Positions 11,803 to 61,929 of a DNA stretch of 64,000 bases are shown here, piece by piece. The notes under the pieces were generated by a model. That model did not search any database and was not told where the DNA came from. It was given only the letters and a program-made list of their open reading frames with translations. Source of the stretch: a virus (Duplodnaviria; Heunggongvirae; Uroviricota; Caudoviricetes); the IMG/VR virus record IMGVR_UViG_2513237368_000009; one strand, 5' to 3'. The first letter of the stretch is position 1, and each line of letters begins with the position of its first letter. A program made the translations under genes and the position numbers.

Positions 11803-14078
11803 TGGCAGATACAGAAAGTGTTAAAATCACAGGAAGGTTGAACAGAATTAAATTTGAGTCACAAGATAATGACTTCAAAATAATGGATATTGCGTGTGAA
11901 GACGGCCAGTTAAGGACTCTTAAAGGTGATGCGGATATACTGTTTAATACCGATTATGAGTTTACTTGTTCAATTGAGAATCACCCACGGTTCGGGAAGC
12001 AATATACTATCCAGTATATGAAACGTAAGAAACCGATTGACTCTCTTAGTCAAGAAGATTTTAAAGAGTTCCTAAACATTGCAGTAGGTGGAATTAAAAC
12101 AAAGGCTATTTATGAAACGTTGGAAGATCCTATCGCAGTTTTCAAGAATGGAGATATTGAAGCGTTAAAGACAATCAAAGGTATTGGCGATAGTTATGCT
12201 AATAAGTTGTTGGAGACATACGAATCCCAAAAAGATTACAGCGAAGGATATATTGAGTTTAGTAAGTGGGGTTTCACTCCTAAGTTCACAAGAAAGGTTA
12301 TTAAGAAAAAGGGTTCAGTTGAGTTAGCAATCAAAGCACTCAAAGAAAATCCATATAGCCTCATGGAATTATCGGGAGTTGGTTTTAAAACGATAGATAA
12401 CAAAGCCTTAGAGCATGGTATCAAACCTAACGATAAAAGACGTGTTAGAGCGTTCATTGAGAATTTCTTTAGTAATCTTGCTATGGACGGGAACTCATAT
12501 ATCAATTTGAATAAGTTTTTGCTTTATTTGAAGAATGAGATCTTTGAGTGTGACTTGAAATATATAACAAAATATTTAGCTGAAAGTGATAAATATGTTG
12601 TATATACTCATGAAAACGAACGAAGAATAAGTACCAAAATGACTTTTAATACATTACAAGGTATATCAAGAGAATTGTTGAGAATATTGCTATGCAAGAA
12701 ACACTTAAAAATTGAGGGTCAGGATAAGATTGTTAAAAAGACCGAGGAAGAACAAGGTTGGGAATATTCTGATGAACAGCGAAATGTTATTGATCAGATG
12801 ACGAAATATAACGTCTTTCTTCTACAAGGTTTAGCTGGTACTGGTAAAAGTTCTGTCGTTAATGGTTTCCTACAAATATTACAGCAGAATAATTATGAGT
12901 ATAAACAATGTGCATTGTCTGGTAAGGCTGCTCAAAATTTAGCTGGGATCACAGGTAAAATGGGAAGTACCATTCATTCATTGCTTGGATATACACAAGA
13001 AGGTTTCTTTTACAATGAAAACACGAAACTACCTACTCATGCCGTAATTTTAGATGAAATATCCATGGTTGATATAGATATCTTTTACGCATTGTTAAAG
13101 GCTATTCCTAGTGGAGCTAAGTTAGTTATGATTGGTGATAGCGGACAGTTGGATTCAATTGGTGTGGGTGTCATGGAAGAGATAATTAAGTCTAAGGCAA
13201 TTCCGACATTCACTTTGAAGAAGATTCATAGACAGGCGCAAGATTCCGCTATGATTACTCATTCAATAGCCTTTCGTAAAGGTAAATATCCATCAGAGTT
13301 ATCTACGAAACACAAGTATAAAGTTTATGGTTTTAAGAAAGATTTAGGATATACTTTTGTTCCTTCAAATGAGTCAAATATTCCGATTGAAACAATGAGG
13401 ATATATAAGACTTTGGTCAAGAAATTTGGTGTAGATGATACACAGATTATCACTCCGACAATCTCTTCTGGAACTACAAACTGTAACATGTTAAATGATA
13501 CGTGTCAGAAATTAGTCAACCCACCTAACCCCAATTTATTAGAGGTTGAATTAAATAGAGGTGGTGGAGAGAAGTTCATTATCAGAGAAAACGATCGGGT
13601 AATCAATACACGTAATAATCCTAGGACACAAGATGTTGACGGAAAGAGTTTGCCAATTTTCAATGGTAATACTGGAAGAGTTGAAGAGATTGTACTTAAT
13701 GCTGAGGGTCATTTAGATAAGATGACAGTTAATTTTGACGGTATTGGCAGAGTTATTATCGGGAGCAAGGATATAAAATACATTAATTTGTCTTATGCTA
13801 TGACAGTTCATAAGTCACAAGGTAGCACAATTAAATGTGTAATCGTATCTTTACCATTCCAATATATGTTAGATACACGAGAGCTGTTATATACAGCAAT
13901 CACTAGAGCATCTAATTTAGCCTATATCGTCACGTCACCTAAGACATTGAAGAGTACAGTTGGAAAATCAAGTAAGAAGTTACATGATAATGAACTAGGG
14001 GCATTAATTCGTTTACAAGCTATGAAAATTATAGAAAAGAACAAAAAGAAAGGAAGTAATAAGAATGAGGGTATTTAA
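11796..14078 (+). CDS. RecD-like SF1 ATP-dependent DNA helicase
   Basis: Walker A LQGLAGTGKSS, Walker B ILDEISM, C-terminal YAMTVHKSQGS motif typical of RecD/TraA-like helicases; N-terminal HhH-like region. Confidence 0.65.
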   Translation: MLMADTESVKITGRLNRIKFESQDNDFKIMDIACEDGQLRTLKGDADILFNTDYEFTCSIENHPRFGKQYTIQYMKRKKPIDSLSQEDFKEFLNIAVGGIKTKAIYETLEDPIAVFKNGDIEALKTIKGIGDSYANKLLETYESQKDYSEGYIEFSKWGFTPKFTRKVIKKKGSVELAIKALKENPYSLMELSGVGFKTIDNKALEHGIKPNDKRRVRAFIENFFSNLAMDGNSYINLNKFLLYLKNEIFECDLKYITKYLAESDKYVVYTHENERRISTKMTFNTLQGISRELLRILLCKKHLKIEGQDKIVKKTEEEQGWEYSDEQRNVIDQMTKYNVFLLQGLAGTGKSSVVNGFLQILQQNNYEYKQCALSGKAAQNLAGITGKMGSTIHSLLGYTQEGFFYNENTKLPTHAVILDEISMVDIDIFYALLKAIPSGAKLVMIGDSGQLDSIGVGVMEEIIKSKAIPTFTLKKIHRQAQDSAMITHSIAFRKGKYPSELSTKHKYKVYGFKKDLGYTFVPSNESNIPIETMRIYKTLVKKFGVDDTQIITPTISSGTTNCNMLNDTCQKLVNPPNPNLLEVELNRGGGEKFIIRENDRVINTRNNPRTQDVDGKSLPIFNGNTGRVEEIVLNAEGHLDKMTVNFDGIGRVIIGSKDIKYINLSYAMTVHKSQGSTIKCVIVSLPFQYMLDTRELLYTAITRASNLAYIVTSPKTLKSTVGKSSKKLHDNELGALIRLQAMKIIEKNKKKGSNKNEGI

Positions 14079-27214: not shown

Positions 27215-28680
27215 TATTTATAGGGTCGGTAACTAAGAAAACTTATGCTTTTAATCGTAAGATGAATTAGTGCCTTGACCGACCAGAATTGTATTCTGTT
27301 ACTTGGTTCTCAATATGCTGAAATTTTGGAGAAAAGCTTGACATCAAAGGAGGTGAACCTGAATGTATCAAGGCCTTAAACTACGGATATATCCTAATTT
27401 AGAACAACAAAAACAAATAGTTGAGAACTTTGGGGCAACTAGATTTGTTTGGAATCAGATGTTGGATATGCAAAGCAAGCGTTATAAAAATAATAAAGAT
27501 TCTAAGTTCTTAAATGGTTTTGCAATGAACTTCTTATTAAGGCAATTAAAAACAGAATATCCATGGTTAAAACAAGCTGAGAGCACCTCACTACAAGACA
27601 CTTGTGAAACTCTAGCTGTAGCTTTCCAAAGATTTTTTAAGAAGCTTGGGGGATATCCTAAATTTAAGTCGCGAAAATTTCCAAAGCAAAGTTTTAAATC
27701 TAAATGTATAAATAACAATGTTAGATTGATTGATAATCATTATTTGAAGCTGCCTAAATTAGGCATTATGAAGTACAGAGGGAAATTCACTGATGACAAA
27801 ATCAAGTCAACGACTATCCAGTTAAGTCCAACAGGCAAGTTCTATTGCGTTTTACTAATTGAGTGTGAAAATCAAACACAATTTAGTAAGACAAATAAAA
27901 CTGTCGGTTTGGATATGGGGATAGCTGATTTAATAATTACATCAGATGCTGTTAAATATCCGACAATTAGGTTTGATCAGATTCTTGCTAAGAAGAAACA
28001 CTATTGGGAAAAACGACTAGCTAGAAGAAGGCTATTAGCACAAAAAGAAATAGCTTGGGATAAACACAACAAAGTCGTTGAACCTAGAGAACTAGCCAAC
28101 TTTAAGAACTATACCAAGGCTAAACAGATGGTCGCTAAATATAGTGAAAAGATAGCTAACCAGAGGAAAGATTATCTTCATAAGATTACAATTGGGTTAG
28201 TTAAAGACTATGACAAAATAGTGATTGAAGATTTGAAAACTAATAATATGATTAAGAATCACAAATTAGCCAGAGCAATCGCTAACCAATCTTGGAGAAT
28301 GCTTAGACTAATGTTGGAATATAAGTGCAAATGGTATGGCAAAGTCCTTAGTGTGGTTAATCCATACAAGACTAGTCAACTCTGCTTTAATTGTGGATAT
28401 GATGATGGTAAACACGAACTAGATATTCGTGCTTGGACTTGTCCTCAATGCCATACACAGCTAGATAGAGATGTAAACGCAAGTAAAAATATATTAAAAC
28501 TTGGTTTGGGCTAAACCTTAGTAAATAGAGTAAACCGCTGTCGAATACTGAAATGTATGAGATAAGTTATGCTTGTTCCTAGAAGCTCGGTACTTTAGTG
28601 CCGACGTAAGTCACACAACAATGAGTACAAGGTTTTCGATACAGCGGGTACAAAATTACCAGAGGGTGACGAGTTTATCA
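27215..28680 (+). mobile_element. IS200/IS605-family element carrying tnpB only (IS1341-like); ends approximate
   Basis: left subterminal hairpin GGTCGGT...ACCGACC (27223-27284); similar TAGTGCC..CCGAC at right end; omegaRNA-like structured 3' region 28515-28680. Confidence 0.5.
27363..28514 (+). CDS. tnpB: TnpB (OrfB) RuvC-like RNA-guided nuclease of IS200/IS605 family
   Basis: N-terminal LKLRIYPNLEQQKQIVENFGATRFVWNQ; C-terminal zinc finger CFNCGY...CPQCHTQLDRDVNASKNIL. Confidence 0.7.
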   Translation: MYQGLKLRIYPNLEQQKQIVENFGATRFVWNQMLDMQSKRYKNNKDSKFLNGFAMNFLLRQLKTEYPWLKQAESTSLQDTCETLAVAFQRFFKKLGGYPKFKSRKFPKQSFKSKCINNNVRLIDNHYLKLPKLGIMKYRGKFTDDKIKSTTIQLSPTGKFYCVLLIECENQTQFSKTNKTVGLDMGIADLIITSDAVKYPTIRFDQILAKKKHYWEKRLARRRLLAQKEIAWDKHNKVVEPRELANFKNYTKAKQMVAKYSEKIANQRKDYLHKITIGLVKDYDKIVIEDLKTNNMIKNHKLARAIANQSWRMLRLMLEYKCKWYGKVLSVVNPYKTSQLCFNCGYDDGKHELDIRAWTCPQCHTQLDRDVNASKNILKLGLG

Positions 28681-32618: not shown

Positions 32619-32858
32619 GATGAAAATGGACAAGCCATTAATGGGAAATGCAAATTTTCCCTCATTCTTATTCCATAGCTTACTATGGAAAATAAAAATA
32701 TGCTTTGTCTCGTATTTTTATTTGTTACACTTCAACTTCAACGAAAAATAAGAACCGAACAGAGGTGATAGTATATGATGATCTTTACATAGTATCAGCA
32801 TTTAAAGTTGCTGGTACTATGTTTTTTTTTGACACAATAATAAAAAAGGGGCGTGTAT

Positions 32859-33500: not shown

Positions 33501-33515
33501 TATTAATATTGAAAT
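33497..33515 (+). promoter_or_regulatory. degenerate motif copy (ATAGTATTAATATTGAAAT)
   Basis: partial consensus. Confidence 0.3.
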
Positions 33516-33537
33516 ATGACAGTAGTCATATTTTTTT
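33514..33537 (+). terminator. rho-independent terminator ATATGAC..GTCATAT + T7
   Basis: seen directly. Confidence 0.55.
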
Positions 33538-33606
33538 ATTACCTCTAATTTTTTGGTTGTTTTTTCACACCATTCATAATATAATTAATCATATAAAAAG
33601 ATAAAA

Positions 33607-40910: not shown

Positions 40911-41678
40911 CTACCTAGGTTCGATAAATAATGGTGTATTGTAGATAAGTTTGTCCATTAACTCGAAATCAGTCTTGGTCTCCATACTCTCGTACTTTTC
41001 TTTTAGAGCTTTATACAGTCCCTCTGGGTCTATAAAATGTAACAAATCTTTATCATAGCTATCAGTGTTTTTAACATACATATATCTAGCTATGCCAGAG
41101 ATTTCGACTTCTAAGAATGTATTCTCACAAACGTAAACCTCGTTTTCTAAGAAGGTATTGTTATAAACAGAAATTCCATATCTATACGCTTTAATTAGAT
41201 TAAATAATTCTTTACCAAAAGAACCGCTGCCATGGTACACCTTATCTGGTGACATCCTAGACAGGTTAGATTTAATCATTCCGACACATGACCCAACAAA
41301 ATGTTTTGAATCCATAGAAGATAGTAGTTCTCTATATTGATAGAGCATTTCAGCCAATGTACTGAAATATGTGCCAATAAATACTGGACGATTGAAAAAT
41401 ATCTCAATAAAATTAGGGTTAGTCTTCTTCAATAAAGAAAATAAATGAGTGATATCGAAACACTTAATTTCATAATTTTCACCTCTATATGTCTTACCCT
41501 TATTCCTATCACTCAGCACAAAGTCTTTCTTATTAGAAATAGTGAAAGCATAAAAATCATAATCTGAATTAAGATTGTTAGTTCCAGTTAATCTTGACCC
41601 CGTCAAATATAATAAAGCTAAATTAGGTATCTTCTCTCTAATGTCGTTCACAATCTTTTGCGGTACTGATACTTTCAT
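40911..41678 (-). CDS. minimal nucleotidyltransferase-fold protein (Pol-beta superfamily, GS...DxD)
   Basis: LTGSRLTGTNNLNSDYDFYAF near N-terminus; ATG 41678 after AGGAGGGG, 11 nt after tdk stop (track start 41798 overlaps tdk). Confidence 0.45.
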   Translation of the reverse strand: MKVSVPQKIVNDIREKIPNLALLYLTGSRLTGTNNLNSDYDFYAFTISNKKDFVLSDRNKGKTYRGENYEIKCFDITHLFSLLKKTNPNFIEIFFNRPVFIGTYFSTLAEMLYQYRELLSSMDSKHFVGSCVGMIKSNLSRMSPDKVYHGSGSFGKELFNLIKAYRYGISVYNNTFLENEVYVCENTFLEVEISGIARYMYVKNTDSYDKDLLHFIDPEGLYKALKEKYESMETKTDFELMDKLIYNTPLFIEPR

Positions 41679-41688
41679 GTTACCCCTC

Positions 41689-42279
41689 CTATTTATGTGC
41701 CCCAGCATTAGTGGGACAATGCCAATGTCTACGACAAACAGAGATATACTCTTCATCTCCGATTTGTACTTGTTCACCTTCATAAACTGGCTTACCATTA
41801 ACCATTCGTAAATTCATTGTTGCTTTCTTATTACAATATCTGCATACAGTTTTGATTTCTTCGAGCTTATCAGCAAGTGTCAAGAGTGCTTTGCTACCCT
41901 CAAATAGATTATTACTAAAGTCATTTTTCAGACCATAACAGATAACTGGTATACCAAACAAATCCACAATGCTGGCTAGTTCCTCAACCTGTTTACTTGT
42001 CAAGAATTGAGATTCGTCAATCAAGATACATGATGGATCAATTTTCAGCATATCTTCATCTATGATATCTCCCATAATGCTTGTTTCATTGCTTACGGGT
42101 ATTGCCTCATGAGAGATACCAATGCGGCTGCTAATGCAACCTACACCCGACCTAGTATCTAATGAACTCGTCAATAGAATAACTTTCTTACCACTCTCAC
42201 GATAATTATGAGCAACCTTCAGCAACTCTACACTCTTACCACTGTTCATAGTTCCATATCTAAAAAACAATTGTGCCAT
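41689..42279 (-). CDS. tdk: thymidine kinase
   Basis: [20 protein letters not shown]-loop, C-terminal Cys cluster CRYC..C..H. Confidence 0.8.
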
Positions 42280-42746: not shown

Positions 42747-43115
42747 TTATTCGACAATCTTTAAATCATAACATCCATATTCACTAAGAGGTAAATTCCC
42801 AAGCATAAGAGACGTTTTTGTTGACCAAATTTTACCGATTCTATGATCCATTAGTTTAGGAGTTAAGTTAGACCAAAATTCAACATTATCTCCTTCATAA
42901 ATCTTTTTGCCACTTTCAATATCTTTTCGTCCTGAATATTGTTCAAGAATTACATCATCATTTTTTACATTCCAAGTTTCATTTTTGCCTTTAACAATCA
43001 CGTAGACCGAACTAGGAGTTCCATCTGTGTCCCTATTTTGGATTGCTGTCACATAGTCCGATCTAACATTCAACCTTTTATTAAATGCTCTAAAAATCAT
43101 TCTTTCGTTCATCAT
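42747..43115 (-). CDS. YopX-family protein (paralog 2)
   Basis: SGKKIYEGDNVEF motif. Confidence 0.45.
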   Translation of the reverse strand: MMNERMIFRAFNKRLNVRSDYVTAIQNRDTDGTPSSVYVIVKGKNETWNVKNDDVILEQYSGRKDIESGKKIYEGDNVEFWSNLTPKLMDHRIGKIWSTKTSLMLGNLPLSEYGCYDLKIVE

Positions 43116-43465
43116 GATACCTCCAAGAGTTCTGGGTTCTGGTGGATGTTTCCCACTACTTCTCCCTTACGAACTGCATAATCAACACGTACCCAGCCTG
43201 TTACGAAACTAGCATCTTCTTGCGACCATTTGACAACTAGATATTCAACATCACCTGTACTATTAACATATTTGATAATGTCGCCTTCATAGATTTCTTT
43301 GTCATTCTTATCTCTGTGACCTATATATTGTTCCCAAGTAGCGGTATCATTTCCGACTAAATCATCAACTAGTCCTCTAAAACTACCAAAGTTAAAACTT
43401 TCAATAGACATGTATTTATATTCCCCTAAATCTTCATGCCATGCTCTGAAGTTAATTTGTCTCAT
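43112..43465 (-). CDS. YopX-family protein (paralog 3)
   Basis: DKNDKEIYEGDIIKY motif. Confidence 0.45.
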   Translation of the reverse strand: MRQINFRAWHEDLGEYKYMSIESFNFGSFRGLVDDLVGNDTATWEQYIGHRDKNDKEIYEGDIIKYVNSTGDVEYLVVKWSQEDASFVTGWVRVDYAVRKGEVVGNIHQNPELLEVS

Positions 43466-43697
43466 TTTCTAACCCCCATTTTGCAAACTCTGCCAATACT
43501 TCAAGCTCTTGCTTCGATGTTAATTTTTTAAAAGAGTTTTCAACAACCACATTTAAATTACCTACAACATGTCTCCTATGAAGTGTTCCTATAACACCTA
43601 TTGGACTTAGCTCTAAGGATTTGTCTCGGTCTACGTAATTTTTGTACCCTTTAAGCCATTTCAATACAATATTTTGAACCTTATTCATCTTCTTCAC
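43452..43697 (-). CDS. hypothetical protein
   Basis: ORF track. Confidence 0.4.
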   Translation of the reverse strand: MKKMNKVQNIVLKWLKGYKNYVDRDKSLELSPIGVIGTLHRRHVVGNLNVVVENSFKKLTSKQELEVLAEFAKWGLENETN

Positions 43698-44142
43698 TCC
43701 CTACAAGATTAATGTGTAATGATCTAACAGTTTTACCCATGATTATATTTTTTGCTCCCAACACATTGAGTCTTATCAAACTTGCACGATACCCATTATG
43801 TTTTAATGCTTTTACTATCGTATTAAGTGACTTATCATTCAACTTATTAAGATGTGGATTCTCTTCAGCAATTATTCCTAAAGCAATACTATTACTCTCT
43901 TTAGCTGAGGATATTAAACGAGACACTTCTTCCAATGATTCTTTTGTAACACTAGTTTGTGTTGGTAAGAAATCACAAATTTCATCAAATGTCATACACT
44001 TATTTTCTTCTATCATTTCATCATCCTTCTTTATAAAAGTAAAACCTAAGCGCTTAAAGGTCTCTTCAATTTCTTGATCTGTTGCTTTTACTCCATAATT
44101 ATCAAATAAATTTTTTAAATTAATCTTAGGCATTATTACCAC
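43681..44142 (-). CDS. hypothetical protein
   Basis: ORF track. Confidence 0.4.
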   Translation of the reverse strand: MVIMPKINLKNLFDNYGVKATDQEIEETFKRLGFTFIKKDDEMIEENKCMTFDEICDFLPTQTSVTKESLEEVSRLISSAKESNSIALGIIAEENPHLNKLNDKSLNTIVKALKHNGYRASLIRLNVLGAKNIIMGKTVRSLHINLVGSEEDE

Positions 44143-44896
44143 TCCAATTCAATCGTGTACGCAATGTTCTGCGACCATAATTAATAATCTCTCCGCATCG
44201 CAATCGTTCAAGTGTTGTTTTCTTATCTTCTCTAAATCCCCATCCAAGAAAGACGCTAACGTTGTATTTCTCTTTTAGTTTTCTACCATATTCTGTTTCA
44301 AAGAAATCATCATTAATATCTTTAATCGTGAATGACAGTCCATTTTCAAAAAATGTGCTATTTGTAACTTCGTCTACATGAATCGTATTTAACAATTGCA
44401 CGTCATCTTGAATCTCATTATTCTTCAACCAATTTTCTAAATCTTCAAGTTGTGTCTTTGTTAAACTTAAATCATTAATTAAGTCATAATAATTGTTTTT
44501 GATACGTGCTATTCTTATCAATTGTGACTCTGGCAGATTCAATGGAATAAAGTATTTATTTTCAGTTACAAACGACAGATCATAATGATCATGTTTAAAT
44601 TTTATGAGCTGTGCGTATATTCCATCAAACTTTGTTAAGTAAATACCTCTTTTAAACCACATATTACGATTTGCATCAATAATGTTGTCAATGTTTATAC
44701 AAGCTATAATTAACCAGCCAACAAAACTAACGAATAATATCAACAAAATAAAGACCAACAATATATCAATGGTTATTGCTATAATATATTGATACAGTTT
44801 TCCATTTACGCCACATTCTTTACGAGTGCCATTCTTACTATTCCACAGTATCTTGGCGTACTCATTCATTACTGTAGAACGTTCGCTGCTATCCAT
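44126..44896 (-). CDS. membrane-anchored hypothetical protein
   Basis: N-terminal TM region. Confidence 0.4.
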   Translation of the reverse strand: MDSSERSTVMNEYAKILWNSKNGTRKECGVNGKLYQYIIAITIDILLVFILLILFVSFVGWLIIACINIDNIIDANRNMWFKRGIYLTKFDGIYAQLIKFKHDHYDLSFVTENKYFIPLNLPESQLIRIARIKNNYYDLINDLSLTKTQLEDLENWLKNNEIQDDVQLLNTIHVDEVTNSTFFENGLSFTIKDINDDFFETEYGRKLKEKYNVSVFLGWGFREDKKTTLERLRCGEIINYGRRTLRTRLNWSGNNA

Positions 44897-45512
44897 TTAA
44901 GAAATCTCCCTCTTCCCACATAGACATGATTTCAGTTTTTCTGCTCTCCAATTTACTAGTTTTTGAATCAATATCCGTCAACATCTGCTTGTACAATTTT
45001 TCTCTATCAGTATCTTCAAGAACCTTGATTATTGGGTACTTTTCTTTTTCGACAACGTCAGTGTATAACTGTTCAAGTGTTTCAAATTTGACTTCTCTAG
45101 TGCTGCTGTTGTAATATCCGAAATGTTCAGATAGGTAATTTATTATTACCTTGTCTGATTTCTTTTTATATCTGAAGGGGCTGCCTTGCTCTACGTCATA
45201 TACTTCTACGTCTGCATCCATATTGACGTAATGACGATAGGTACAATTGATTACATTCTTGCTTAGATCAATTTGTTCACCATAATCAAAGAATAACTTA
45301 TATACATGCGGAGTCAGATATTTATTGCTATCAAGTAGTTCGAGATTTATCTTAATTTTGTCTCCGAAATAAAAGACGGCCATATCACCAGCTTTGTTAC
45401 GTCCATGACCATGTATTTCATGTGTCTTGACTTTGATTAAGTCTCTCCACCTATGTCTTAATACCAGCTCTTTAATAAGGTACTTCTTCATATTTACATA
45501 ACATTCAGCCAT
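44889..45512 (-). CDS. hypothetical protein
   Basis: ORF track. Confidence 0.45.
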   Translation of the reverse strand: MAECYVNMKKYLIKELVLRHRWRDLIKVKTHEIHGHGRNKAGDMAVFYFGDKIKINLELLDSNKYLTPHVYKLFFDYGEQIDLSKNVINCTYRHYVNMDADVEVYDVEQGSPFRYKKKSDKVIINYLSEHFGYYNSSTREVKFETLEQLYTDVVEKEKYPIIKVLEDTDREKLYKQMLTDIDSKTSKLESRKTEIMSMWEEGDFLNG

Positions 45513-45535
45513 AATTTCTCCTTATCTCTTTAAAT

Positions 45536-45560
45536 ATTGTAATATTACTACTATCAACAT
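45536..45560 (-). promoter_or_regulatory. conserved motif copy (minus: ATGTTGATAGTAGTAATATTACAAT)
   Basis: reverse complement read. Confidence 0.5.
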
Positions 45561-45600
45561 ATATAAATATAACCGTTAAACATCAAAATGTCAACGGTTA

Positions 45601-45624
45601 TTGTAATATTACTACTATTAAATT
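45601..45624 (-). promoter_or_regulatory. conserved motif copy (minus: AATTTAATAGTAGTAATATTACAA)
   Basis: reverse complement read; second copy 40 bp from previous. Confidence 0.5.
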
Positions 45625-45889
45625 ATTCTTTAGCTTTTCTATTCCACTCTGTAATCTTGTCTGGTCTTAAATTACTCCATTCATCTACGATTTCATCTTT
45701 TTTAAGATCATAGACTTGCACAAAAGGCATAGTTCTTACTTCTTTTTCATTTTTAAGCCAATCAATGATATCACTGCTAAGTTTGACTGGCTTAAATGGT
45801 AGTTTTAAACGTTCCATGGTAATTTTGCACTTTATGCAATTGTCTTTCCATATAACTGTTGCCTGATACCTATTTTCTTGTTCTGTCAT
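45623..45889 (-). CDS. NrdH/glutaredoxin-like small redoxin
   Basis: VIWKDNCIKCKIT CxxC motif, 88 aa. Confidence 0.45.
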   Translation of the reverse strand: MTEQENRYQATVIWKDNCIKCKITMERLKLPFKPVKLSSDIIDWLKNEKEVRTMPFVQVYDLKKDEIVDEWSNLRPDKITEWNRKAKE

Positions 45890-45898
45890 ACAGCACCT

Positions 45899-46231
45899 CT
45901 ACTTTTTCCTATACATTAATTGTAATTTTCTTCTACGATCTGTTATTAATTCCCCCACCAATTCTAACGCTATCTGAGAATCAGCAACATTTTTATGCCA
46001 TACAAAAGTATGTGTCTCAATAATTTTCTTATTTTTAGTATCATATAAATACCAATGTACAATTCTCTTATCTGTATCACCAATCATTAATGAATAATCA
46101 GTATATGATACTCTATAAACCTCACGCAAACTACTATATATATCTTTTAATTCATTTTTTGCTTGTTTTTTGTGCTGTACAATATCATATAGCAATAATA
46201 ATGCAAGCAAAATAATCACAGCTTCAGTCAT
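45899..46231 (-). CDS. hypothetical protein (N-terminal TM)
   Basis: ORF track. Confidence 0.4.
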   Translation of the reverse strand: MTEAVIILLALLLLYDIVQHKKQAKNELKDIYSSLREVYRVSYTDYSLMIGDTDKRIVHWYLYDTKNKKIIETHTFVWHKNVADSQIALELVGELITDRRRKLQLMYRKK

Positions 46232-46260
46232 TCAGTCACCTCTTTTTAAAAAATCATTAT

Positions 46261-46449
46261 CTATTCTCTTACTATTTTGACATCATCACTAAAAACATAT
46301 GATTTACCACCCAACGTGATTTGCGTGCCGGCCTTAATGTGTATGGCACTATTCTCTGCTATAAACAGTTTGGGTGTCTCAACAATGAAATCTATATTAT
46401 TAGTTTCAATATTAGTGGCACTAATATTGTCTTTTATCTCCATACTCAT
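46261..46449 (-). CDS. hypothetical protein
   Basis: ORF track. Confidence 0.35.
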   Translation of the reverse strand: MSMEIKDNISATNIETNNIDFIVETPKLFIAENSAIHIKAGTQITLGGKSYVFSDDVKIVRE

Positions 46450-46892
46450 TCTCCTTTATATATAATTAACGCTGATGGAAAAGGTGCAGCATCTTTTTGT
46501 TCTCCATCAATTGCAAATTTTAACCTACCACGTATAAACTTGATCTCTGCTTTGCCAAAAATATAGTCGTGCCAATAACTAGTATCTGTCCTTGATGGAA
46601 TTAACAATACTAAATATTGATTATGCTTTAGTTTTGTCTCTGCCGCCTTTTTAACCCATAATTTAAGCTCTCTGCCGTATGGAGGATTGAGGAATAAATT
46701 TCCAGAAAGACCCCCCCAATCAATTGATAAAGAGTCATCTTTCTCTGTTAAATGATTGGTACACAGGGCATTATCATCTGTTGATGCTAAGTCCCAATTA
46801 AAGTGAAACACCTTATTAATCTTGTTAAAGAAGTCCCTAGGCGTTTCCCAATATTGCTTATCTGATGTAAACATGCTTTTATTTAATACCAT
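46446..46892 (-). CDS. small phage-type DNA N6-adenine methyltransferase (Dam-like)
   Basis: FLNPPYG motif; about 150 aa. Confidence 0.55.
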   Translation of the reverse strand: MVLNKSMFTSDKQYWETPRDFFNKINKVFHFNWDLASTDDNALCTNHLTEKDDSLSIDWGGLSGNLFLNPPYGRELKLWVKKAAETKLKHNQYLVLLIPSRTDTSYWHDYIFGKAEIKFIRGRLKFAIDGEQKDAAPFPSALIIYKGE

Positions 46893-49290: not shown

Positions 49291-49315
49291 TATAATATTA
49301 CTACTATTAAAAATC
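49291..49315 (-). promoter_or_regulatory. conserved motif copy (minus: GATTTTTAATAGTAGTAATATTATA)
   Basis: reverse complement read. Confidence 0.5.
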
Positions 49316-50660
49316 AAGACTCATAGCTAATATCGTCAATATTTTTATCCGAACGTACACTCTTGAACGTTGGGAATCTCAGTGACTTACCACCATTTTG
49401 ATTTTCACTCTCTTCAAAATACTGAACATCAATGATTTTACCGATAATATCTTCAGGGTTATTCCAGTATTTAACTCTATCATCTTCAGTAAAACCAGAT
49501 CCAACTTGAACCTCAAAATCTTTGAATTGAATAATAACTCCACCTAGCTTATTCTTATTTGCTCCCGTTCCCTCATAAACGTCTTTTACGAGTACGTCTG
49601 CATTAAAGAATTGCTTAATCTTCAATAGGTCTGGTGTACGTTTTGTCTTATAAAAGCTGTCATTAAAGTTGAGCATGAGTCCTTCCCAACCTAACTTCTT
49701 AACTTTCTCATCTTGCAGTTTTGCAATAATGCTAGTATCATTTCCAGAATACAATGTAGGAACGATTTTTAATTTGAAATCTGTGGCAACCATATCATAA
49801 CTTGATGTGAATGTTACATATGATTCAGCCAACTTAGATTTTCTGTCAAGATAAGCTAGTTTAGATTCGCCCTCAAAAAATTCATCAAGTGGTAACCAGT
49901 CAAATACATTAAATAAAATACCAGTTTTATCAGCTTTGTCATTTTTCAATACTTTTGCTGTTGCTCTGAATAGGTCTTTAGTTTCGAGATTATCCTTATT
50001 ATCCAGAACTAGTTCACCATCTAATACTACTGGCTTACCTTGATTGATAATATTTGCCAATACCTCAACTTGTTTTCCCAATAGGTCAAGTCCAACATAT
50101 CTAATTCCTTGTCGTGTGAAGAATGCGACCTCGACACCATCACAGATAGCAACACAACGGTGTCCATCTAGTTTTTGTGTGATACTAAAATCTCTTCCAC
50201 TTTCAACTCTGTCTGGATATTTGTTCATAGGATAAGCCAACTGGCAACTGAACTCCTTGATAAAGCCTTTACACAATGCTTTGTTAATCGACTTAGCTGT
50301 GATCCCAACTTTGATATTCTTAGCAAAAATGTTAAGGATAAATTGTTCAACGCTTTCTGAATACTTCTTAGCGAAATTTTTAATGTTCGATACTACTTGT
50401 AATTTACCAGTATTGTTTTCTTCAACATATTCCATTAATTCAAGAATGTTGTTAAAATCTTGATCTGGTTCAACCAAATCAGTTACCGACATTTTCTTTG
50501 TACTGATACCTGTACGGATAAAATCGTCAAACACAAATTTCAAGACTTCTTTGAATAATATGTTATCCTCATTTTCTTTAATGATAGATACCTTTTCATT
50601 TTTTGAAGATGTTTCAGAGATACGCTGGAAGATAGTTGCTATTTCGATAATGTTTTGCAT
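49314..50660 (-). CDS. ATP-dependent DNA ligase
   Basis: motif I KLDGHR (KxDG), EGLMLNF motif IV, K-rich motif V. Confidence 0.6.
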   Translation of the reverse strand: MQNIIEIATIFQRISETSSKNEKVSIIKENEDNILFKEVLKFVFDDFIRTGISTKKMSVTDLVEPDQDFNNILELMEYVEENNTGKLQVVSNIKNFAKKYSESVEQFILNIFAKNIKVGITAKSINKALCKGFIKEFSCQLAYPMNKYPDRVESGRDFSITQKLDGHRCVAICDGVEVAFFTRQGIRYVGLDLLGKQVEVLANIINQGKPVVLDGELVLDNKDNLETKDLFRATAKVLKNDKADKTGILFNVFDWLPLDEFFEGESKLAYLDRKSKLAESYVTFTSSYDMVATDFKLKIVPTLYSGNDTSIIAKLQDEKVKKLGWEGLMLNFNDSFYKTKRTPDLLKIKQFFNADVLVKDVYEGTGANKNKLGGVIIQFKDFEVQVGSGFTEDDRVKYWNNPEDIIGKIIDVQYFEESENQNGGKSLRFPTFKSVRSDKNIDDISYES

Positions 50661-59467: not shown

Positions 59468-59539
59468 CAGATCATGTTGGAATCGAACCAACGTCAAGAG
59501 TTTTGGAGACTCCTATTCTACCAATTGAACTAATGACCT
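59468..59539 (-). tRNA. tRNA-Trp (anticodon CCA)
   Basis: manual fold on minus strand: acceptor AGGTCAT/ATGATCT, D-arm GTTC-AATTGGTA-GAAT, anticodon arm GGAGT-CTCCAAA-ACTCT, T-arm GTTGG-TTCGATT-CCAAC. Confidence 0.65.
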
Positions 59540-59893
59540 ATATAGTTACAAGGCTGCTTTTGAGGTCTATTACCTTGTTCGCAGCATTCAACGGAACTTG
59601 CGTATTCTAATTCAAAAACATGTAGTATTTGAAATGTGACCCACATTACTGATCACCCTCGCACCCTGTAATTATAAAAGAATTAATTTATAGTCGTACT
59701 TTAATCGACTTTTATCCAGCCAATAAATGCAAGTTCTATGGATTCACTCCTAACTTGCAATGCTCAGGGAAGGATTTGCACCTACATAGCCACAATGACG
59801 ACAGATTTACAGTCTGCGGAGTTCTCTAATACTCAGCCCAAGCGTGTTATTCTTATTTATTTGTTTCCAATTTTGAATCTAAAATCTGAGTAC

Positions 59894-60184
59894 GTTTTCC
59901 TTATCTAAAGGTTTTAATCTGACTAAAACGCATGTATGCTAACCATTGCAGTTTTCCCTATCTAAGGATTCTAGTCAAACTAAAACAAGAGCTTTCAATA
60001 CACATTTCAGTCCAGTGTTTTCCTTATCTAAGGATTCTAGTCAAACTAAAACGCTTTTTCGGAATATCCTATCTTGTCTGTAGTTTTCCTTATCTAAGGA
60101 TTCTAGTCAAACTAAAACTACAGTTGGAAAATCAAGTAAGAAGTTACAGTTTTCCTTATCTAAGGATTCTAGTCAAACTAAAAC
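59894..60184 (-). CRISPR. CRISPR mini-array: 5 x 36-bp repeats (consensus on + strand GTTTTCCTTATCTAAGGATTCTAGTCAAACTAAAAC), spacers of 21, 30, 30, 30 nt
   Basis: repeats at 59894, 59951, 60017, 60083, 60149; leftmost repeat degenerate with truncated spacer, so leader inferred at right and transcription on minus strand (repeat then reads GTTTTAG..., type II-A-like). Confidence 0.85.
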
Positions 60185-60287
60185 CTCAAAATATCCTATC
60201 ATCACTTCAAGGCTTCCTAGGAACTCCGAACCATTGTCCAGATATTTACTAGGCTATTATGGATTGATGGAAACTTCCAATCCTAAT

Positions 60288-60368
60288 GGAACTGGATAGA
60301 TTTGAACTATCTGAGCTTTTAACACTTCCAGTTATTGAGTATTACTAGCATTACCCAATTCAGTTCCG
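60288..60368 (-). tRNA. tRNA-like element (81 nt) with aberrant core; possible unusual or pseudo-tRNA
   Basis: perfect 7-bp acceptor GGAACTG/CAGTTCC and canonical T-arm GATAG-TTCAAAT-CTATC; D/anticodon arms could not be folded canonically by hand. Confidence 0.35.
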
Positions 60369-60970
60369 TTTTCGGGAGAAACTCTCTTTATACTGGTTCT
60401 CCTCTTGTTCCAGTTATGCAAGTGGCATGGATTCAAACCATACAGTGACTAACTTTATAATACTGGCTTACCTCGTACATTAGGTGTAGTCAGGTGTTCT
60501 CACGGTTTTACTCACGCAACCAGTCAAACCTTAGCGTTACTCTCTGCGCCACACTTGCTAGTAATCTACCCGAAGGAAACCAACCATAAGAAGGTCTAAG
60601 TAGTAGAATGGGAACTCACATGCCCCACTTGAATGGACGATTGCCTATACCACATCGCTCACGTTCTTTCCTTTTTAGTGACCACACTAGCAGCTCGGTA
60701 TAGAACCTACTCGTTGGATTTAATCTCAAACCCGATGATTCAATGTCTATATTAGCATTGAATTATTTTTGACTAGTCATAATTCCAAAAAACCGCCTTT
60801 GTGGGTCGAACCGAATTATGTTGACGAAATGTCTAGAGTGTCAATTCTATTAACATTTCACCCTTTTTGACATATCTAGGAAAGATTTGACTGATCTTTC
60901 AGTTGTATGCTAGTGCCAATGGATTGGGTTTAATTTATTACTGCGTATTTAAAGATTACTTTAAATACTA

Positions 60971-61039
60971 TGTGACATATGAGAATCGAACTCATATCAC
61001 TTGTGAAGGTCAAGTGCGCTACCATTACGCCAATGTCAC
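60971..61039 (-). tRNA. tRNA-like (69 nt), anticodon loop ACCTTCA (CTT-Lys reading but C33/C37 non-canonical)
   Basis: perfect acceptor GTGACAT/ATGTCAC, D-arm GCGT-AATGGTA-GCGC, stem CACTTG/CAAGTG, T-arm ATGAG-TTCGATT-CTCAT. Confidence 0.45.
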
Positions 61040-61258
61040 TACGATGCGTTTAATATAATCGCCAAATTATATTAAACGACTTTTAGGAGGCGAACCGCCA
61101 ATAAAAAACGTAATATGACCAGTAGGAATCGAACCTACAAGCCTCGCCAGTGTAAGACCTATTATTTCAAGGTGAATATTACATACTGTCGTCTGCCAGA
61201 CGAGGGTAATACCGCAAATAGCCATAACTTAATTATAATATAACATATCATATTAAAT

Positions 61259-61283
61259 ATGTCAATATTACTACTATTAAATT
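61259..61283 (-). promoter_or_regulatory. conserved motif, exact copy (minus: AATTTAATAGTAGTAATATTGACAT) with TTGACA-17-TATATT, reading into tRNA/CRISPR cluster
   Basis: reverse complement read; downstream (lower coordinates) are tRNA-like genes and the array. Confidence 0.55.
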
Positions 61284-61321: not shown

Positions 61322-61621
61322 TTATAATCTCTTCATTCTTTCCTCAGCGACAGGTTGAAGTATATAAGGGAATCGAGGATTATCTGATGTCATCATTGCA
61401 AATCTCCCAGCCTTGCTTATTAATCCAAATTGTTCCAATAAATGAACTTTTTGGTTGTGTATTGGAAGATTTGCAGAATTAGGATGATTTCTATAGAGTT
61501 CTTTTAAAATTGTCATCGCTTCTGGATCTTGGAATAATTTTTCTTGCTGTTCGGTATAATATTTGTTAAAAGCCAAATCTCTTCTCTTTTTTGCTATTTT
61601 TTTACTTATACGAACCACCAA
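61322..61621 (-). CDS. hypothetical protein with N-terminal TM
   Basis: ORF track. Confidence 0.4.
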   Translation of the reverse strand: MVVRISKKIAKKRRDLAFNKYYTEQQEKLFQDPEAMTILKELYRNHPNSANLPIHNQKVHLLEQFGLISKAGRFAMMTSDNPRFPYILQPVAEERMKRL

Positions 61622-61907
61622 TAGAAAAAAAGAACCAAATAGAAAAATTAAGACAATATAATCGTAATTATCTAAAAAGTTTTCTAAATGAAGTTTTTTA
61701 AATAATTAGATGGTAAAAAATTTGCGGCCGATAAAAGAATACTCGTTGAGAATGTAGCAATCAAAACTTCAAAGCTAATGGGTTTTCTTAGAAAATCAAT
61801 AACTTTATCGAACATTTTATTATACTCTCTTTTCTATAGTAGGAATTAGTATGCTGTTTAATATACTATAATATAAATACTTTTTCATTATATCATATTT
61901 AATTTTA

Positions 61908-61929
61908 ATGTCAATATTACTACTATAAG
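61908..61929 (-). promoter_or_regulatory. conserved motif copy (minus: CTTATAGTAGTAATATTGACAT) with TTGACA-16-TATAAT
   Basis: reverse complement read. Confidence 0.5.

What the first reader, a model, noticed from the sequence alone, without database searches (positions are those of the whole stretch)
59468..61283. Minus-strand RNA gene cluster: canonical tRNA-Trp plus several tRNA-like elements with aberrant anticodon arms flank the array
Besides a good tRNA-Trp (59468-59539) there are two other candidates. The element at 60971-61039 has a perfect acceptor, D-arm and T-arm but loop ACCTTCA (C33, C37). The 81-nt element at 60288-60368 has a perfect 7-bp acceptor and TTCAAAT T-arm but no canonical core. 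An orphan T-arm GTAGG-TTCGATT-CCTAC sits at 61122-61138. Perfect acceptor/T-arms with broken anticodon domains suggest RNase P/Z processing handles rather than decoding tRNAs, which would fit a natural tRNA-scaffolded crRNA cassette. Alternatively they are decayed phage tRNAs.
Basis: partly seen in the sequence, partly recalled or inferred. Interest (0 to 1): 0.7.

Follow-up and report, generated by a model that had tools for sequence, protein, structure and literature searches.

The report
tRNA-like elements bracketing phage guide-RNA array
A 1.9-kb RNA-only island in a Liquorilactobacillus mali phage-plasmid holds one normal tRNA, two crippled tRNAs and several 'top-half-only' tRNA look-alikes around a small CRISPR-type array, and related phage-plasmids place the same look-alikes next to TnpB guide-RNA genes, which suggests (without RNA data) that tRNA-processing enzymes cut guide RNAs out of long transcripts.

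Summary
On the minus strand, 59468-61225 contains tRNA-Trp(CCA), a tRNA scored at 55 bits whose anticodon loop is ACCUUCA (C33, C37), and an 81-nt element with a perfect acceptor and T-arm that no covariance model recognises. The 'orphan' T-arm belongs to a 112-nt element. Canonical T-arms number 6 in the window against 0.22 expected. They bracket a 5-repeat array (36-nt repeats, 30-nt spacers) whose newest spacer matches the phage's own helicase gene perfectly.

The host is L. mali DSM 20444, and the replicon is a ~126.6-kb phage-plasmid. Uncalled T-arm elements recur elsewhere in this phage and in two related phage-plasmids. In pLM1 they alternate with TnpB guide-RNA scaffolds, and one directly abuts a scaffold plus 36/30 array beside tnpB. 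The L. mali phage encodes an intact TnpB with the same scaffold (E=3e-6). The array leader resembles that scaffold only weakly. The base after the discriminator is U in 23 of 27 elements, and none encodes CCA.

Best reading: these are RNase P/Z punctuation handles in a guide-RNA operon. Decayed tRNAs remain a serious rival. No RNA data exist.

The parts
61237..61265 (-). Promoter-like site P1 (TTGACA-17-TATATT with TG extension), upstream of the RNA island
   Evidence: 11 of 12 matches. The same AGTAGTAATATTGACAT motif occurs at 61887-61914. This is a consensus match only; transcription was not shown.
61114..61225 (-). TLE-A: 112-nt tRNA-like element. Acceptor AUGGCUA/UGGUCAU (5 WC + 2 G-U), canonical T-arm at 61122-61138, discriminator A then U, non-tRNA body.
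   Evidence: ARAGORN at the 80% threshold gives a different, mismatched acceptor. The MFE fold does not form this acceptor.
60971..61039 (-). tRNA-Lys(CUU)-like gene with aberrant anticodon loop ACCUUCA (C33, C37) and an anticodon arm region 2 nt short. Acceptor, D-arm and T-arm are perfect.
   Evidence: Rfam 55.4 bits.
60815..60844 (-). Promoter-like site P2 (TTGACA-18-CATAAT)
   Evidence: 11 of 12 matches. Consensus match only.
60417..60558 (-). TLE-B: 142-nt tRNA-like element. Acceptor GCAAGUG/CACUUGC, D-arm-like hairpin, ~85-nt insert in place of the anticodon arm, T-arm UAUGG-UUUGAAU-CCAUG. An alternative 5' partner, CAAGUGG, lies at 60631.
   Evidence: No Rfam match. The fold is not unusually stable (z = -1.2).
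60287..60367 (-). TLE-C: 81-nt tRNA-like element. 7/7 WC acceptor GGAACUG/CAGUUCC, T-arm GAUAG-UUCAAAU-CUAUC, no recognisable D or anticodon arm, discriminator A followed directly by UUAGG of the array leader.
   Evidence: (z = -2.6).
60185..60286 (-). Array leader. It starts UUAGG and ends ATTTTGAG. It contains the blocks CCTAGTAAATA and GTTCCTAGGAAGCC, which are co-linear with the TnpB-associated scaffold. No promoter of its own was found.
   Evidence: The CM evidence is weak: E = 0.049 in a local search and 0.3-0.6 across the whole window.
59894..60184 (-). CRISPR-type array: five 36-nt repeats (GTTTTAGTTTGACTAGAATCCTTAGATAAGGAAAAC, last one degenerate), with spacers of 30, 30, 30 and 21 nt.
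59761..59843 (-). tRNA-Tyr(GUA)-like gene, degenerate: C8, no G18G19, T-loop UGCAAAU, one T-stem mismatch. Anticodon arm intact.
   Evidence: (32.5 bits).
59728..59758 (-). Minihelix GCAAGUU...AACUUGC-A with a vestigial T-loop (UGAAUCC). Its 3' 20 nt are 85% identical to the 3' end of TLE-B.
   Evidence: (family D6).
59468..59539 (-). Canonical tRNA-Trp(CCA), CCA not encoded
   Evidence: 64.4 bits.
13955..13984 (-). Protospacer with a perfect 30/30 match to the leader-proximal spacer 1 (60119-60148), inside the RecD/exonuclease V-like helicase gene 11796-14078 (+). Flanks on the spacer-sense strand: 5' TTATCA, 3' CTCTTCAATG.
27363..28514 (+). TnpB (IS605 OrfB family, 383 aa) with the D-E-D RuvC motifs present. 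Candidate effector in trans.
   Evidence: 43% identity to the pLM1 TnpB; ISDra2 TnpB structures, E = 2e-55.
28500..28614 (+). TnpB-associated structured RNA scaffold (omega-RNA type)
   Evidence: a CM built only from pLM1 copies scores it 35.9 bits, E = 3e-6; 53.9 bits with R2, though that model's training set included this copy.

Best explanation
The 59.4-61.3 kb segment is an RNA-only operon of a ~126.6-kb L. mali phage-plasmid. It is transcribed on the minus strand, probably from two sigma-70-type promoters. It encodes one working tRNA (Trp), two recognisable but probably non-decoding tRNAs (Lys-like, Tyr-like), and four tRNA-derived 'top-half' modules: TLE-A, TLE-B, TLE-C and the minihelix.

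The top-half modules keep the acceptor/T-arm stack and the T-loop but have lost the decoding half. I infer that host RNase P cuts at their 5' ends and RNase Z cuts after their discriminators, since no element encodes CCA. That would chop the long transcript into pieces. One piece would be a leader-plus-array precursor running from UUAGG at 60286 to just before the Tyr-like gene at 59844.

The tRNA-like modules would then act as punctuation for a guide-RNA precursor that has no promoter or terminator of its own. Guides would be matured further by an RNA-guided effector. The more likely candidate is the phage's own TnpB (27363-28514), whose scaffold RNA family the leader weakly resembles. The other candidate is a host type II-A Cas9, whose array format the locus also matches.

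Shown: the elements, their non-random occurrence, the array, the self-matching spacer, the TnpB and its scaffold, and recurrence of the arrangement in relatives.

Inferred: co-transcription, RNase P/Z cleavage, and which effector uses the guides.
For: 1. The elements are not chance. T-arm and acceptor+T-arm counts far exceed shuffles.

2. Top halves are selectively intact. TLE-C and TLE-B have 7/7 WC acceptors and 5-bp T-stems (5 WC in TLE-C, 4 WC plus one G-U in TLE-B). TLE-C has the canonical T-loop UUCAAAU and TLE-B a near-canonical one, UUUGAAU. Their bodies are unrecognisable to the tRNA covariance model.

3. None of the 7 elements in the island encodes CCA, and all 7 have U after the discriminator. 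Across three phage-plasmids the figure is 23 of 27 T-arm elements against a T frequency of 0.30-0.33. In Lactobacillales, CCA-less tRNAs are cut by RNase Z immediately after the discriminator (PMC8549757).

4. No promoter-like site lies between TLE-C and repeat 1, while strong ones lie upstream at 61265 and 60844.

5. The pattern recurs.
- The same phage has three more uncalled T-arm elements in 105-170-nt gaps between small genes.
- pMP1046B (L. salivarius) has five.
- pLM1 (L. mucosae) has four in a cluster with tRNA-Arg.

6. In pLM1 the order is scaffold-guide-tRNA-Arg, scaffold-guide, long TLE (177 nt), mini-TLE (43 nt), scaffold, 36/30 array, tnpB, scaffold, 36/30 array. The L. mali order is TLE-B (142 nt), TLE-C (81 nt), leader, 36/30 array. 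In both, the element's discriminator A is followed directly by UUAGG, the first bases of the scaffold or leader.

7. The L. mali TnpB is intact and related to the pLM1 TnpB. The pLM1-trained CM finds the scaffold at its 3' end with E = 3e-6. The scaffold's P1 hairpin shows compensatory changes.
Against: - There is no transcript or RNA-end data of any kind.
- The island has no homolog in any collection searched, so covariation cannot be tested for TLE-A, B or C.
- The Tyr-like gene downstream of the array has T-loop, T-stem and position-8 defects, and TLE-A has two G-U pairs in its acceptor. A strict 'processing handle' model would predict better conservation.
- Leader-to-scaffold homology is weak (10-13 bits; E = 0.05 local, 0.3-0.6 window-wide).
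- The TnpB gene lies 31 kb from the array.
- Most solo scaffold copies in pLM1 have no adjacent tRNA-like element, so punctuation is not obligatory.
- tRNA islands may simply tolerate insertions, which would produce the same association without function.
- Thermodynamic stability of the region is unremarkable (z = 0.27).
Confidence: 0.5

Rival explanations
1. Decaying phage tRNA genes with no present function. The island is a tRNA gene cluster in a variable accessory slot (between the endolysin and primase modules). It is losing genes by point mutation, insertion and internal deletion. The array, like IS605/TnpB elements in relatives, simply landed in a region that tolerates insertions. RNase P/Z may still cut the remnants, but nothing depends on it.
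For: - Defects are heterogeneous: the anticodon loop in the Lys-like gene, the T-loop/D-loop/position 8 in the Tyr-like gene, and acceptor G-U pairs in TLE-A.
- The minihelix looks like an internal-deletion copy of TLE-B (family D6). A second 5'-half-like fragment lies at 60631.
- The slot is variable. Relatives carry other cargo or nothing there.
- The island is unique to this phage.
Against: - Uniform neutral decay should not leave 12 stem pairs and the T-loop intact in TLE-C, and nearly so in TLE-B, while erasing the rest. This is an inference from the sequence, not a test.
- U after the discriminator is kept in 16 of the 19 T-arm elements that ARAGORN's default settings do not call.
- Anticodon-arm-less elements recur independently in three phage-plasmids, often in short gaps between co-oriented genes.
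- TLEs abut scaffold or leader starts at the same UUAGG junction in two genomes.
Confidence: 0.3
2. tRNA mimics serving another purpose, with the array unrelated to them. Examples: decoys or replacements against host tRNA-targeting defences (anticodon nucleases), or substrates for CCA-adding or repair enzymes.
For: - The recognisable aberrant tRNAs are the Lys and Tyr isoacceptor types. From my own knowledge, these are types targeted by known anticodon nucleases and countered by phage tRNAs (PrrC/PARIS for Lys; retron-Eco7 PtuAB for Tyr).
- The Lys-like gene is altered exactly in the anticodon loop.
- The phage encodes an RlaP-like nucleotidyltransferase and an ATP-dependent ligase with a weak RNA-ligase match.
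Against: - Most TLEs have no anticodon arm at all, so they cannot be decoys for anticodon nucleases.
- C33 and C37 argue against decoding.
- No tRNA-targeting defence is known in this host.
- This does not explain the junction with scaffolds and arrays.
Confidence: 0.1
3. Relics of site-specific recombination. Phages that integrate into tRNA genes carry tRNA 3' segments (attP), and the scattered T-arm elements are such fragments.
For: The replicon encodes tyrosine recombinases (295-1344 and 1430-2668). T-arm-plus-3'-acceptor fragments are typical attP cores (own knowledge; compare bioRxiv 10.64898/2026.04.20.719267).
Against: - The elements contain both acceptor strands and often D-arm remnants. 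They are internally deleted tRNAs, not 3' fragments.
- There are far too many per genome.
- All are co-oriented with the flanking genes.
Confidence: 0.05

Closest known systems
Engineered tRNA-gRNA arrays (polycistronic tRNA-gRNA) and Haloferax 'icrRNA' flanked by t-elements
   Same: Guide RNAs are embedded between tRNA or tRNA-like structures, so that cellular RNase P and RNase Z release them from one transcript. The Haloferax system is cited from PMC6546412 and PMC7521656, which surfaced. The rest is my own knowledge.
   Different: Those are man-made, and each guide is flanked individually. Here the arrangement is natural, the handles bracket a whole leader-array unit (single scaffold-guide units in pLM1), and cleavage has not been shown.
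Plant mitochondrial t-elements and the mitochondrial tRNA punctuation model
   Same: tRNA-like structures that are not decoding tRNAs define the 5' and 3' ends of neighbouring transcripts through RNase P and RNase Z (PMC1920247, PMC8601606).
   Different: That system is organellar and flanks mRNAs and rRNAs. Here the setting is a bacterial phage-plasmid, and the elements flank small genes, TnpB scaffolds and an array.
Murine gammaherpesvirus 68 tRNA-miRNA-encoding RNAs (TMERs)
   Same: A virus-encoded, non-aminoacylated tRNA-like module is fused to small regulatory or guide RNAs and processed by tRNase Z (own knowledge).
   Different: That is a eukaryotic virus with pol III transcripts and miRNA hairpins. 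There is no sequence relationship.
Phage tRNA gene clusters with pseudo-tRNAs and tRNA-like stable RNAs (e.g. T4 species 1 and 2 RNAs, T5 tRNA region)
   Same: A large phage carries a co-transcribed cluster that mixes functional tRNAs with aberrant ones and with ~140-nt stable RNAs whose ends resemble tRNA (own knowledge).
   Different: No array or guide-RNA scaffold is embedded in those clusters. No sequence similarity was found.
TnpB / omega-RNA systems and type V (Cas12) arrays carried by phages
   Same: The L. mali phage and its relatives encode TnpB with a conserved structured RNA at the gene's 3' end. pLM1 has 36/30 arrays on both sides of tnpB. There is precedent for phage type V arrays without adaptation genes that are proposed to borrow host adaptation (bioRxiv 10.64898/2026.04.20.719267).
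   Different: Canonical TnpB uses a single omega-RNA with one guide and no array. The L. mali array is 31 kb from tnpB, and its link to the scaffold is weak.
Type II-A CRISPR arrays; orphan mini-arrays on phages
   Same: The locus has a 36-nt repeat beginning GTTT and ending AAAC, 30-nt spacers, a GAG/GTTT leader-repeat junction and a leader end of ATTTTGAG against the Group 1 consensus ATTTGAG (PMC5382924). L. mali has a type II system (PMC4667430).
   Different: No cas9, cas1, cas2 or csn2 gene and no tracrRNA anti-repeat lies in the 83 kb of the phage that was inspected. The repeat was not found in the viral, metagenome or GTDB-representative genome collections searched.

Membership tests
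tRNA (Rfam RF00005), element 59468-59539 | Cloverleaf scoring above the gathering threshold, with a standard 7-nt anticodon loop (U33, purine 37) | tested here: met
   64.4 bits; loop CUCCAAA.
tRNA (Rfam RF00005), element 60971-61039 | Cloverleaf above the gathering threshold | tested here: met
   55.4 bits; ARAGORN calls it Lys(CTT).
tRNA (decoding-competent), element 60971-61039 | U33 and purine 37 in a 7-nt loop on a 5-bp stem, with position 26 present | tested here: not met
   The loop is ACCUUCA (C33, C37). The arm region is 2 nt short in the CM alignment.
tRNA (Rfam RF00005), element 59761-59843 | Cloverleaf above the gathering threshold, with the conserved tertiary nucleotides (U8, G18G19, U55) | tested here: inconclusive
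   32.5 bits, just above the 29-bit threshold, with an intact CUGUAAA loop. But it has C8, G55, a T-stem mismatch and no GG in the D-loop.
tRNA (Rfam RF00005), TLE-A, TLE-B, TLE-C | Full cloverleaf recognised by the covariance model | tested here: not met
   No hit at E<=10 for B and C. Only the T-arm of A matches, at 13.6 bits.
tRNA-like processing elements (t-element type) | Acceptor stem stacked on a T-arm with a T-loop; lack of a functional anticodon | tested here: met
tRNA-like processing elements (t-element type) | RNase P and RNase Z cleavage at the element's boundaries in vivo or in vitro | not testable with these tools
   This needs RNA-end mapping or enzyme assays.
Type II-A CRISPR array | 36-nt repeat GTTT...AAAC, ~30-nt spacers, GAG/GTTT leader-repeat junction | tested here: met
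   compared with PMC5382924.
Type II-A CRISPR array | Adjacent cas9-cas1-cas2-csn2 genes and a tracrRNA with an anti-repeat | tested here: not met
   No cas genes appear in the window or flanks. No anti-repeat stands above background. About 43 kb of the phage and the host chromosome were not inspected.
TnpB / omega-RNA guide system | TnpB protein with an intact RuvC D-E-D triad and zinc finger | tested here: met
   Pfam OrfB_IS605 plus the TNB domain. Full-length match to ISDra2 TnpB, E = 2e-55, with GLDMG, IEDL and DRDVNA aligned to the catalytic motifs.
TnpB / omega-RNA guide system | Conserved structured RNA overlapping or following the 3' end of tnpB | tested here: met
   The CM trained on pLM1 alone hits 28500-28614 at E = 3e-6. 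P1 shows covariation.
TnpB / omega-RNA guide system | The array leader or repeat at 59894-60286 is homologous to that scaffold | tested here: inconclusive
   It is the best hit in the island, but only 10-13 bits (E = 0.05 local, 0.3-0.6 window-wide). Two co-linear sequence blocks and the UUAGG start are shared.

The most novel reading that the evidence does not exclude
A family of 108-145-kb Lactobacillaceae phage-plasmids runs natural 'tRNA-punctuated guide-RNA operons'. In these, anticodon-arm-less tRNA mimics are maintained as RNase P/Z cleavage signals. The signals excise TnpB scaffold-guide units and scaffold-plus-array precursors from long transcripts. The 36-nt/30-nt arrays next to TnpB (pLM1) or in trans (L. 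mali) would be a TnpB-to-Cas12 transitional form. Its repeats would keep a type II-A-like format so that the host's II-A adaptation machinery can add spacers.
Probability: 0.25. Interest if true: 0.85.

Novelty: new variant of a known kind. Interest (0 to 1): 0.6.

Why it matters
Cutting guide RNAs out of a transcript with tRNA handles is a widely used engineering trick, and I know of no described natural bacterial or phage counterpart. If these elements are real RNase P/Z signals, phages arrived at the same solution, and they also use it between ordinary genes.

The relatives add a second point. An intact TnpB sits between two regular 36/30 arrays in pLM1, with about eleven solo scaffold-guide copies on one replicon. 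That would be a living intermediate between transposon omega-RNAs and CRISPR arrays.

The perfect self-match of the newest spacer raises the question of what such arrays target, and how the replicon survives carrying it.

All of this can be tested directly in a culture-collection strain, L. mali DSM 20444.

Tried and rejected
- **tracrRNA in the island.** I ran ungapped and RNAduplex scans of the repeat against both strands of the window. The candidate at 60770-60795 ranks about 1000th of 31,752 windows. Rejected.
- **Known RNA families.** Rfam searches at gathering and at E<=10 on the island, and on the pLM1 cluster, returned only tRNA hits and chance-level matches. There are no tmRNA, GOLLD/ROOL or Y-RNA-type matches.
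- **tRNA introns.** ARAGORN run with introns allowed gave nothing new.
- **Homologs of the island or the repeat.**
  - GenBank phages, PLSDB plasmids and IMG/VR returned only the same phage, as L001.
  - JGI metagenomes (two scans) returned nothing.
  - GTDB representative genomes (two scans) returned nothing related. The only arrays sharing the GTTTTAG...GAC start are ordinary Ligilactobacillus II-A arrays with unrelated repeats.
  -.
- **Targets of spacers 2-4.** No credible hit in phages, plasmids or any held locus. The pLM1 spacers and guides also have no match in held loci.
- **Recent duplication among the elements.** Self-BLAST of the island shows almost none.
- **Exceptional thermodynamic stability.** Not seen for 60410-60812.
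- **Protein coding in the island.** Only short ORFs without ribosome-binding sites. A 52-aa ORF overlaps TLE-A.
- **Similarity between the CRISPR repeat and the DNA flanking tnpB.** None above background.
- **Reading the native L. mali type II repeat.** It could not be read from Sun et al. 2015, where it is shown only in a figure.
Full report
**Source and context**

The window is part of a phage-plasmid carried by Liquorilactobacillus (Lactobacillus) mali DSM 20444 / KCTC 3596. Proteins of the window are encoded verbatim on AYYH01000006.1 and AKKT01000168.1, and AKKT is the L. mali genome project. Coordinate arithmetic on those contigs implies a circular or circularly permuted genome of about 126.6 kb.

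The genome has a DnaE-type polymerase, a primase, a GH25/LysM endolysin, tail genes, tyrosine recombinases and a TnpB gene. No close relative exists among GenBank phages. The family is visible among 'plasmids' of Lactobacillaceae and Vagococcus of 108-145 kb.

The segment 59440-61320 has no credible ORF. It sits between the endolysin and primase modules. Relatives carry other cargo or nothing in that slot.

**Checking the observation**

tRNA-Trp(CCA) at 59468-59539 is canonical (64.4 bits).

The element at 60971-61039 is scored as a tRNA by both Rfam (55.4 bits) and ARAGORN (Lys-CTT). Its loop is ACCUUCA, with C at positions 33 and 37, and the covariance model must delete two positions in the anticodon arm.

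The 81-nt element lies at 60287-60367. It has a 7/7 Watson-Crick acceptor and a perfect T-arm with loop UUCAAAU. ARAGORN finds it only at an 80% threshold with a meaningless anticodon. Rfam's tRNA model does not report it at E<=10 in a 781-nt search.

The T-arm at 61122-61138 is real. It can be closed by a 7-bp acceptor (AUGGCUA/UGGUCAU, two G-U pairs) into a 112-nt element starting about 5 nt after the predicted transcription start.

- a tRNA-Tyr(GUA)-like gene at 59761-59843 (32.5 bits), with an intact anticodon arm but C8, G55, a T-stem mismatch and no G18G19;
- a 142-nt element at 60417-60558, with acceptor GCAAGUG/CACUUGC, a D-arm-like hairpin, a T-arm and an ~85-nt insert where the anticodon arm should be;
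- a 31-nt minihelix at 59728-59758, whose 3' end is 85% identical to that of the 142-nt element.

Chance is excluded. Canonical T-arms occur 6 times in the window against 0.22 expected, and all 6 lie in the two tRNA regions. Acceptor-plus-abutting-T-arm modules occur 8 times against 0.45.

**The array**

Between the 81-nt element and the Tyr-like gene lies an array of five 36-nt repeats (GTTTTAGTTTGACTAGAATCCTTAGATAAGGAAAAC; the last copy is degenerate). The spacers are 30, 30, 30 and 21 nt.

Spacer 1, next to the leader, is a perfect 30/30 match to the phage's own RecD/exonuclease V-like helicase gene at 13955-13984. The RNA would be antisense to that mRNA. The other spacers match nothing available.

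The format fits type II-A as described in PMC5382924:
- 36-nt repeat and 30-nt spacers;
- repeat ends GTTT...AAAC;
- a GAG/GTTT junction;
- a leader ending ATTTTGAG, against the Group 1 consensus ATTTGAG.

L. mali is reported to have a type II system (PMC4667430).

Against a type II-A assignment, there are no cas genes and no anti-repeat in the 83 kb of the phage that I could inspect. The repeat is absent from every collection scanned. No promoter-like site lies between the 81-nt element and the first repeat, whereas strong ones lie at 61265-61237 and 60844-60815.

**tRNA-like elements are a family trait**

A simple T-arm scan of held loci showed that the same phage has three more canonical T-arms that ARAGORN does not call. 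They lie outside the window, in 105-170-nt gaps between small co-oriented genes. Each is preceded by the motif AAAGAATTTTTAG.

The related pMP1046B of Ligilactobacillus salivarius has eight canonical T-arms but only three ARAGORN tRNAs. The extras include:
- 56-58-nt elements between small genes;
- a full cloverleaf with an 8-bp 'anticodon' stem;
- an element with an acceptor, a canonical D-arm, a 9-nt linker and a T-arm but no anticodon arm at all.

pLM1 of Limosilactobacillus mucosae has five T-arms clustered at 29.1-31.5 kb of locus L046, and only one is a called tRNA (Arg-TCT).

Across the three replicons, the base after the discriminator is T in 23 of 27 T-arm elements, against a background of 0.30-0.33. 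Among the 19 T-arm elements that ARAGORN's default settings do not call the figure is 16 of 19, by my count, taking the 60417 register for the 142-nt element. None encodes CCA. In Lactobacillales, CCA-less tRNAs are matured by RNase Z, which cuts right after the discriminator (PMC8549757). That a U at this position favours RNase Z is my recollection of Pellegrini et al. 2003, which I could not open.

**Link to guide RNAs**

In pLM1 the T-arm cluster is followed by a 36/30 array (repeat GTTCAATACCTATGTGATTTGACATAGGTAACGGAC), a tnpB gene, and a second 36/30 array.

A ~105-nt structured RNA precedes both arrays and occurs 11 times on pLM1. Each solo copy ends in GGTAGTCC followed by unique sequence. 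Its P1 hairpin shows compensatory changes.

A covariance model built only from the pLM1 copies finds one copy in the window, at 28500-28614. That is exactly at the 3' end of the L. mali tnpB gene (35.9 bits, E = 3e-6). It also finds a weaker copy downstream of a pMP1046B tnpB (E = 0.011). This RNA therefore behaves as the omega-RNA-type scaffold of this TnpB clade.

The L. mali TnpB is 43% identical to the pLM1 TnpB. It matches ISDra2 TnpB structures over its full length, with the D-E-D motifs in place.

The order in pLM1 is:
1. scaffold-guide-tRNA-Arg
2. scaffold-guide
3. a 177-nt long tRNA-like element
4. a 43-nt mini element
5. scaffold, then array 1
6. tnpB
7. scaffold, then array 2

The order in L. 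mali is the 142-nt element, the 81-nt element, the leader, then the array. In both genomes the discriminator A of the short element is followed immediately by UUAGG, the first bases of the scaffold or leader.

The L. mali leader shares two co-linear blocks with the TnpB scaffold: CCTAGTAAATA and GTTCCTAGGAAGCC. It is the best hit of the scaffold model within the island. The scores are low, however: 10.2 bits with E = 0.049 locally, and E = 0.3-0.6 over the whole window. I treat that homology as suggestive only.

**Interpretation**

The most economical reading that covers all of this is that the elements are tRNA-derived modules retained, or at least still working, as RNase P/Z cleavage signals. 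They would punctuate long phage transcripts, and in this island they would release a leader-array precursor that lacks its own promoter. The handles also occur between ordinary genes, and they bracket the array as a whole rather than each guide. Which effector uses the guides is open, whether phage TnpB in trans or a host Cas9.

The main rival is neutral decay of a phage tRNA cluster in an insertion-tolerant slot. It is supported by the heterogeneous defects, above all in the Tyr-like gene, and by the uniqueness of the island. It is weakened by the selective integrity of the top halves, the retained U after the discriminator, and recurrence of anticodon-arm-less elements and of the UUAGG junction in separate genomes.

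No RNA data exist, and covariation cannot be tested for the window's own elements because they have no homologs.

**Comparison and novelty**

Functionally the closest things are engineered tRNA-gRNA arrays and Haloferax icrRNAs, plant mitochondrial t-elements (PMC1920247), and MHV68 tRNA-miRNA transcripts.

By membership:
- Three elements are tRNA genes by score, of which one is fully canonical.
- Three elements and the minihelix fail the tRNA model.
- The array meets the sequence format of type II-A but not its gene context.
- The TnpB and scaffold meet the TnpB/omega-RNA criteria.
- The array's link to the scaffold is inconclusive.

I rate the finding a new variant of a known kind, with interest 0.6. 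The recurrence across phage-plasmids and the TnpB-flanking arrays in pLM1 make it worth an RNA-end-mapping experiment in a strain that is publicly available.

Noticed in passing
window 60119-60148 and 13955-13984: The leader-proximal (newest) spacer of the phage-borne array is a perfect 30/30 match to the phage's own RecD/exonuclease V-like helicase gene, so it is self-targeting. The flanks are 5' TTATCA and 3' CTCTTCAATG. How the replicon tolerates this is unexplained.
   Followed up: partly
window 27363-28614 (+): An intact TnpB gene (383 aa, D-E-D motifs present) is followed by a ~115-nt structured RNA. A covariance model trained only on copies from another plasmid recognises that RNA (E = 3e-6).
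   Followed up: yes
L046 (pLM1, NZ_CP011014.1) 31646-31875 and 33455-33757, with tnpB at 32002-33306: A TnpB gene sits between two regular CRISPR-type arrays (36-nt repeats, 30-nt spacers, two different repeat sequences). No cas1 or cas2 gene is annotated in the 100 kb of the 108-kb replicon that I inspected. This looks like a TnpB-to-Cas12 intermediate.
   Followed up: partly
L046 2153, 16607, 30714, 31026, 31493, 33324, 35032, 37206, 37377, 46676(-); L045 206(-): Eleven copies of a ~105-nt structured RNA lie on one 108-kb plasmid. Most end in GGTAGTCC followed by unique sequence, as if they were solo scaffold-guide genes. The family is not in Rfam. Its P1 hairpin shows compensatory changes.
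   Followed up: partly
L037 609-7517 (same phage, upstream of window position 1): The motif AAAGAATTTTTRG occurs 9 times on one strand (a tenth, variant copy AAAAGAATTTCTG precedes a third T-arm element at ~5231). Most copies lie just upstream of the ribosome-binding sites of small early genes. Two of the nine are followed by a small T-arm element. A similar AAAAGAATTTTTAA precedes such an element in pMP1046B (L042, about 10115).
   Followed up: partly
window 31472-31542 (+): The phage tRNA-Thr has anticodon AGT (A34). From my own knowledge this is unusual for bacteria, where A34 is normally confined to tRNA-Arg(ACG). It scores well (66.7 bits).
   Followed up: no
window 59468-59539 (-): The otherwise canonical tRNA-Trp(CCA) has a G3-U70 pair. 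From my own knowledge this is the alanine identity element. It may be incidental.
   Followed up: no
window 61322-61814 (-): The SieB-like superinfection-exclusion gene appears split. An ATG at 61814 runs into a stop after about 40 codons, and the Pfam SieB match lies in a 99-aa ORF starting with TTG at 61621. This is either a frameshift or a pseudogene.
   Followed up: no
window 40911-41798 (-) and 49314-50660 (-): An RlaP-like (RNA-repair-associated) nucleotidyltransferase and an ATP-dependent ligase with a weak RNA-ligase match lie in the same replicon as the aberrant tRNAs.
   Followed up: no
L042 (pMP1046B) 42796-46688: The order here is: tRNA-like element, tRNA-Gln, an anticodon-arm-less tRNA-like element ending about 47 nt before a tnpB gene, the TnpB scaffold, another T-arm element, then tRNA-Ser. 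A TnpB unit is therefore bracketed by tRNA-type elements in a second genome.
   Followed up: partly
window 61067-61225 (-): A 52-aa hydrophobic ORF starts about 5 nt after the predicted transcription start of promoter P1 and overlaps TLE-A. It has no ribosome-binding site and is probably spurious, though a leaderless small protein is not excluded.
   Followed up: no
window 60190-60200 and 60063-60073: The 11-mer GATAGGATATT occurs both at the 3' end of the array leader and inside spacer 2. This is probably chance (E = 0.7).
   Followed up: no
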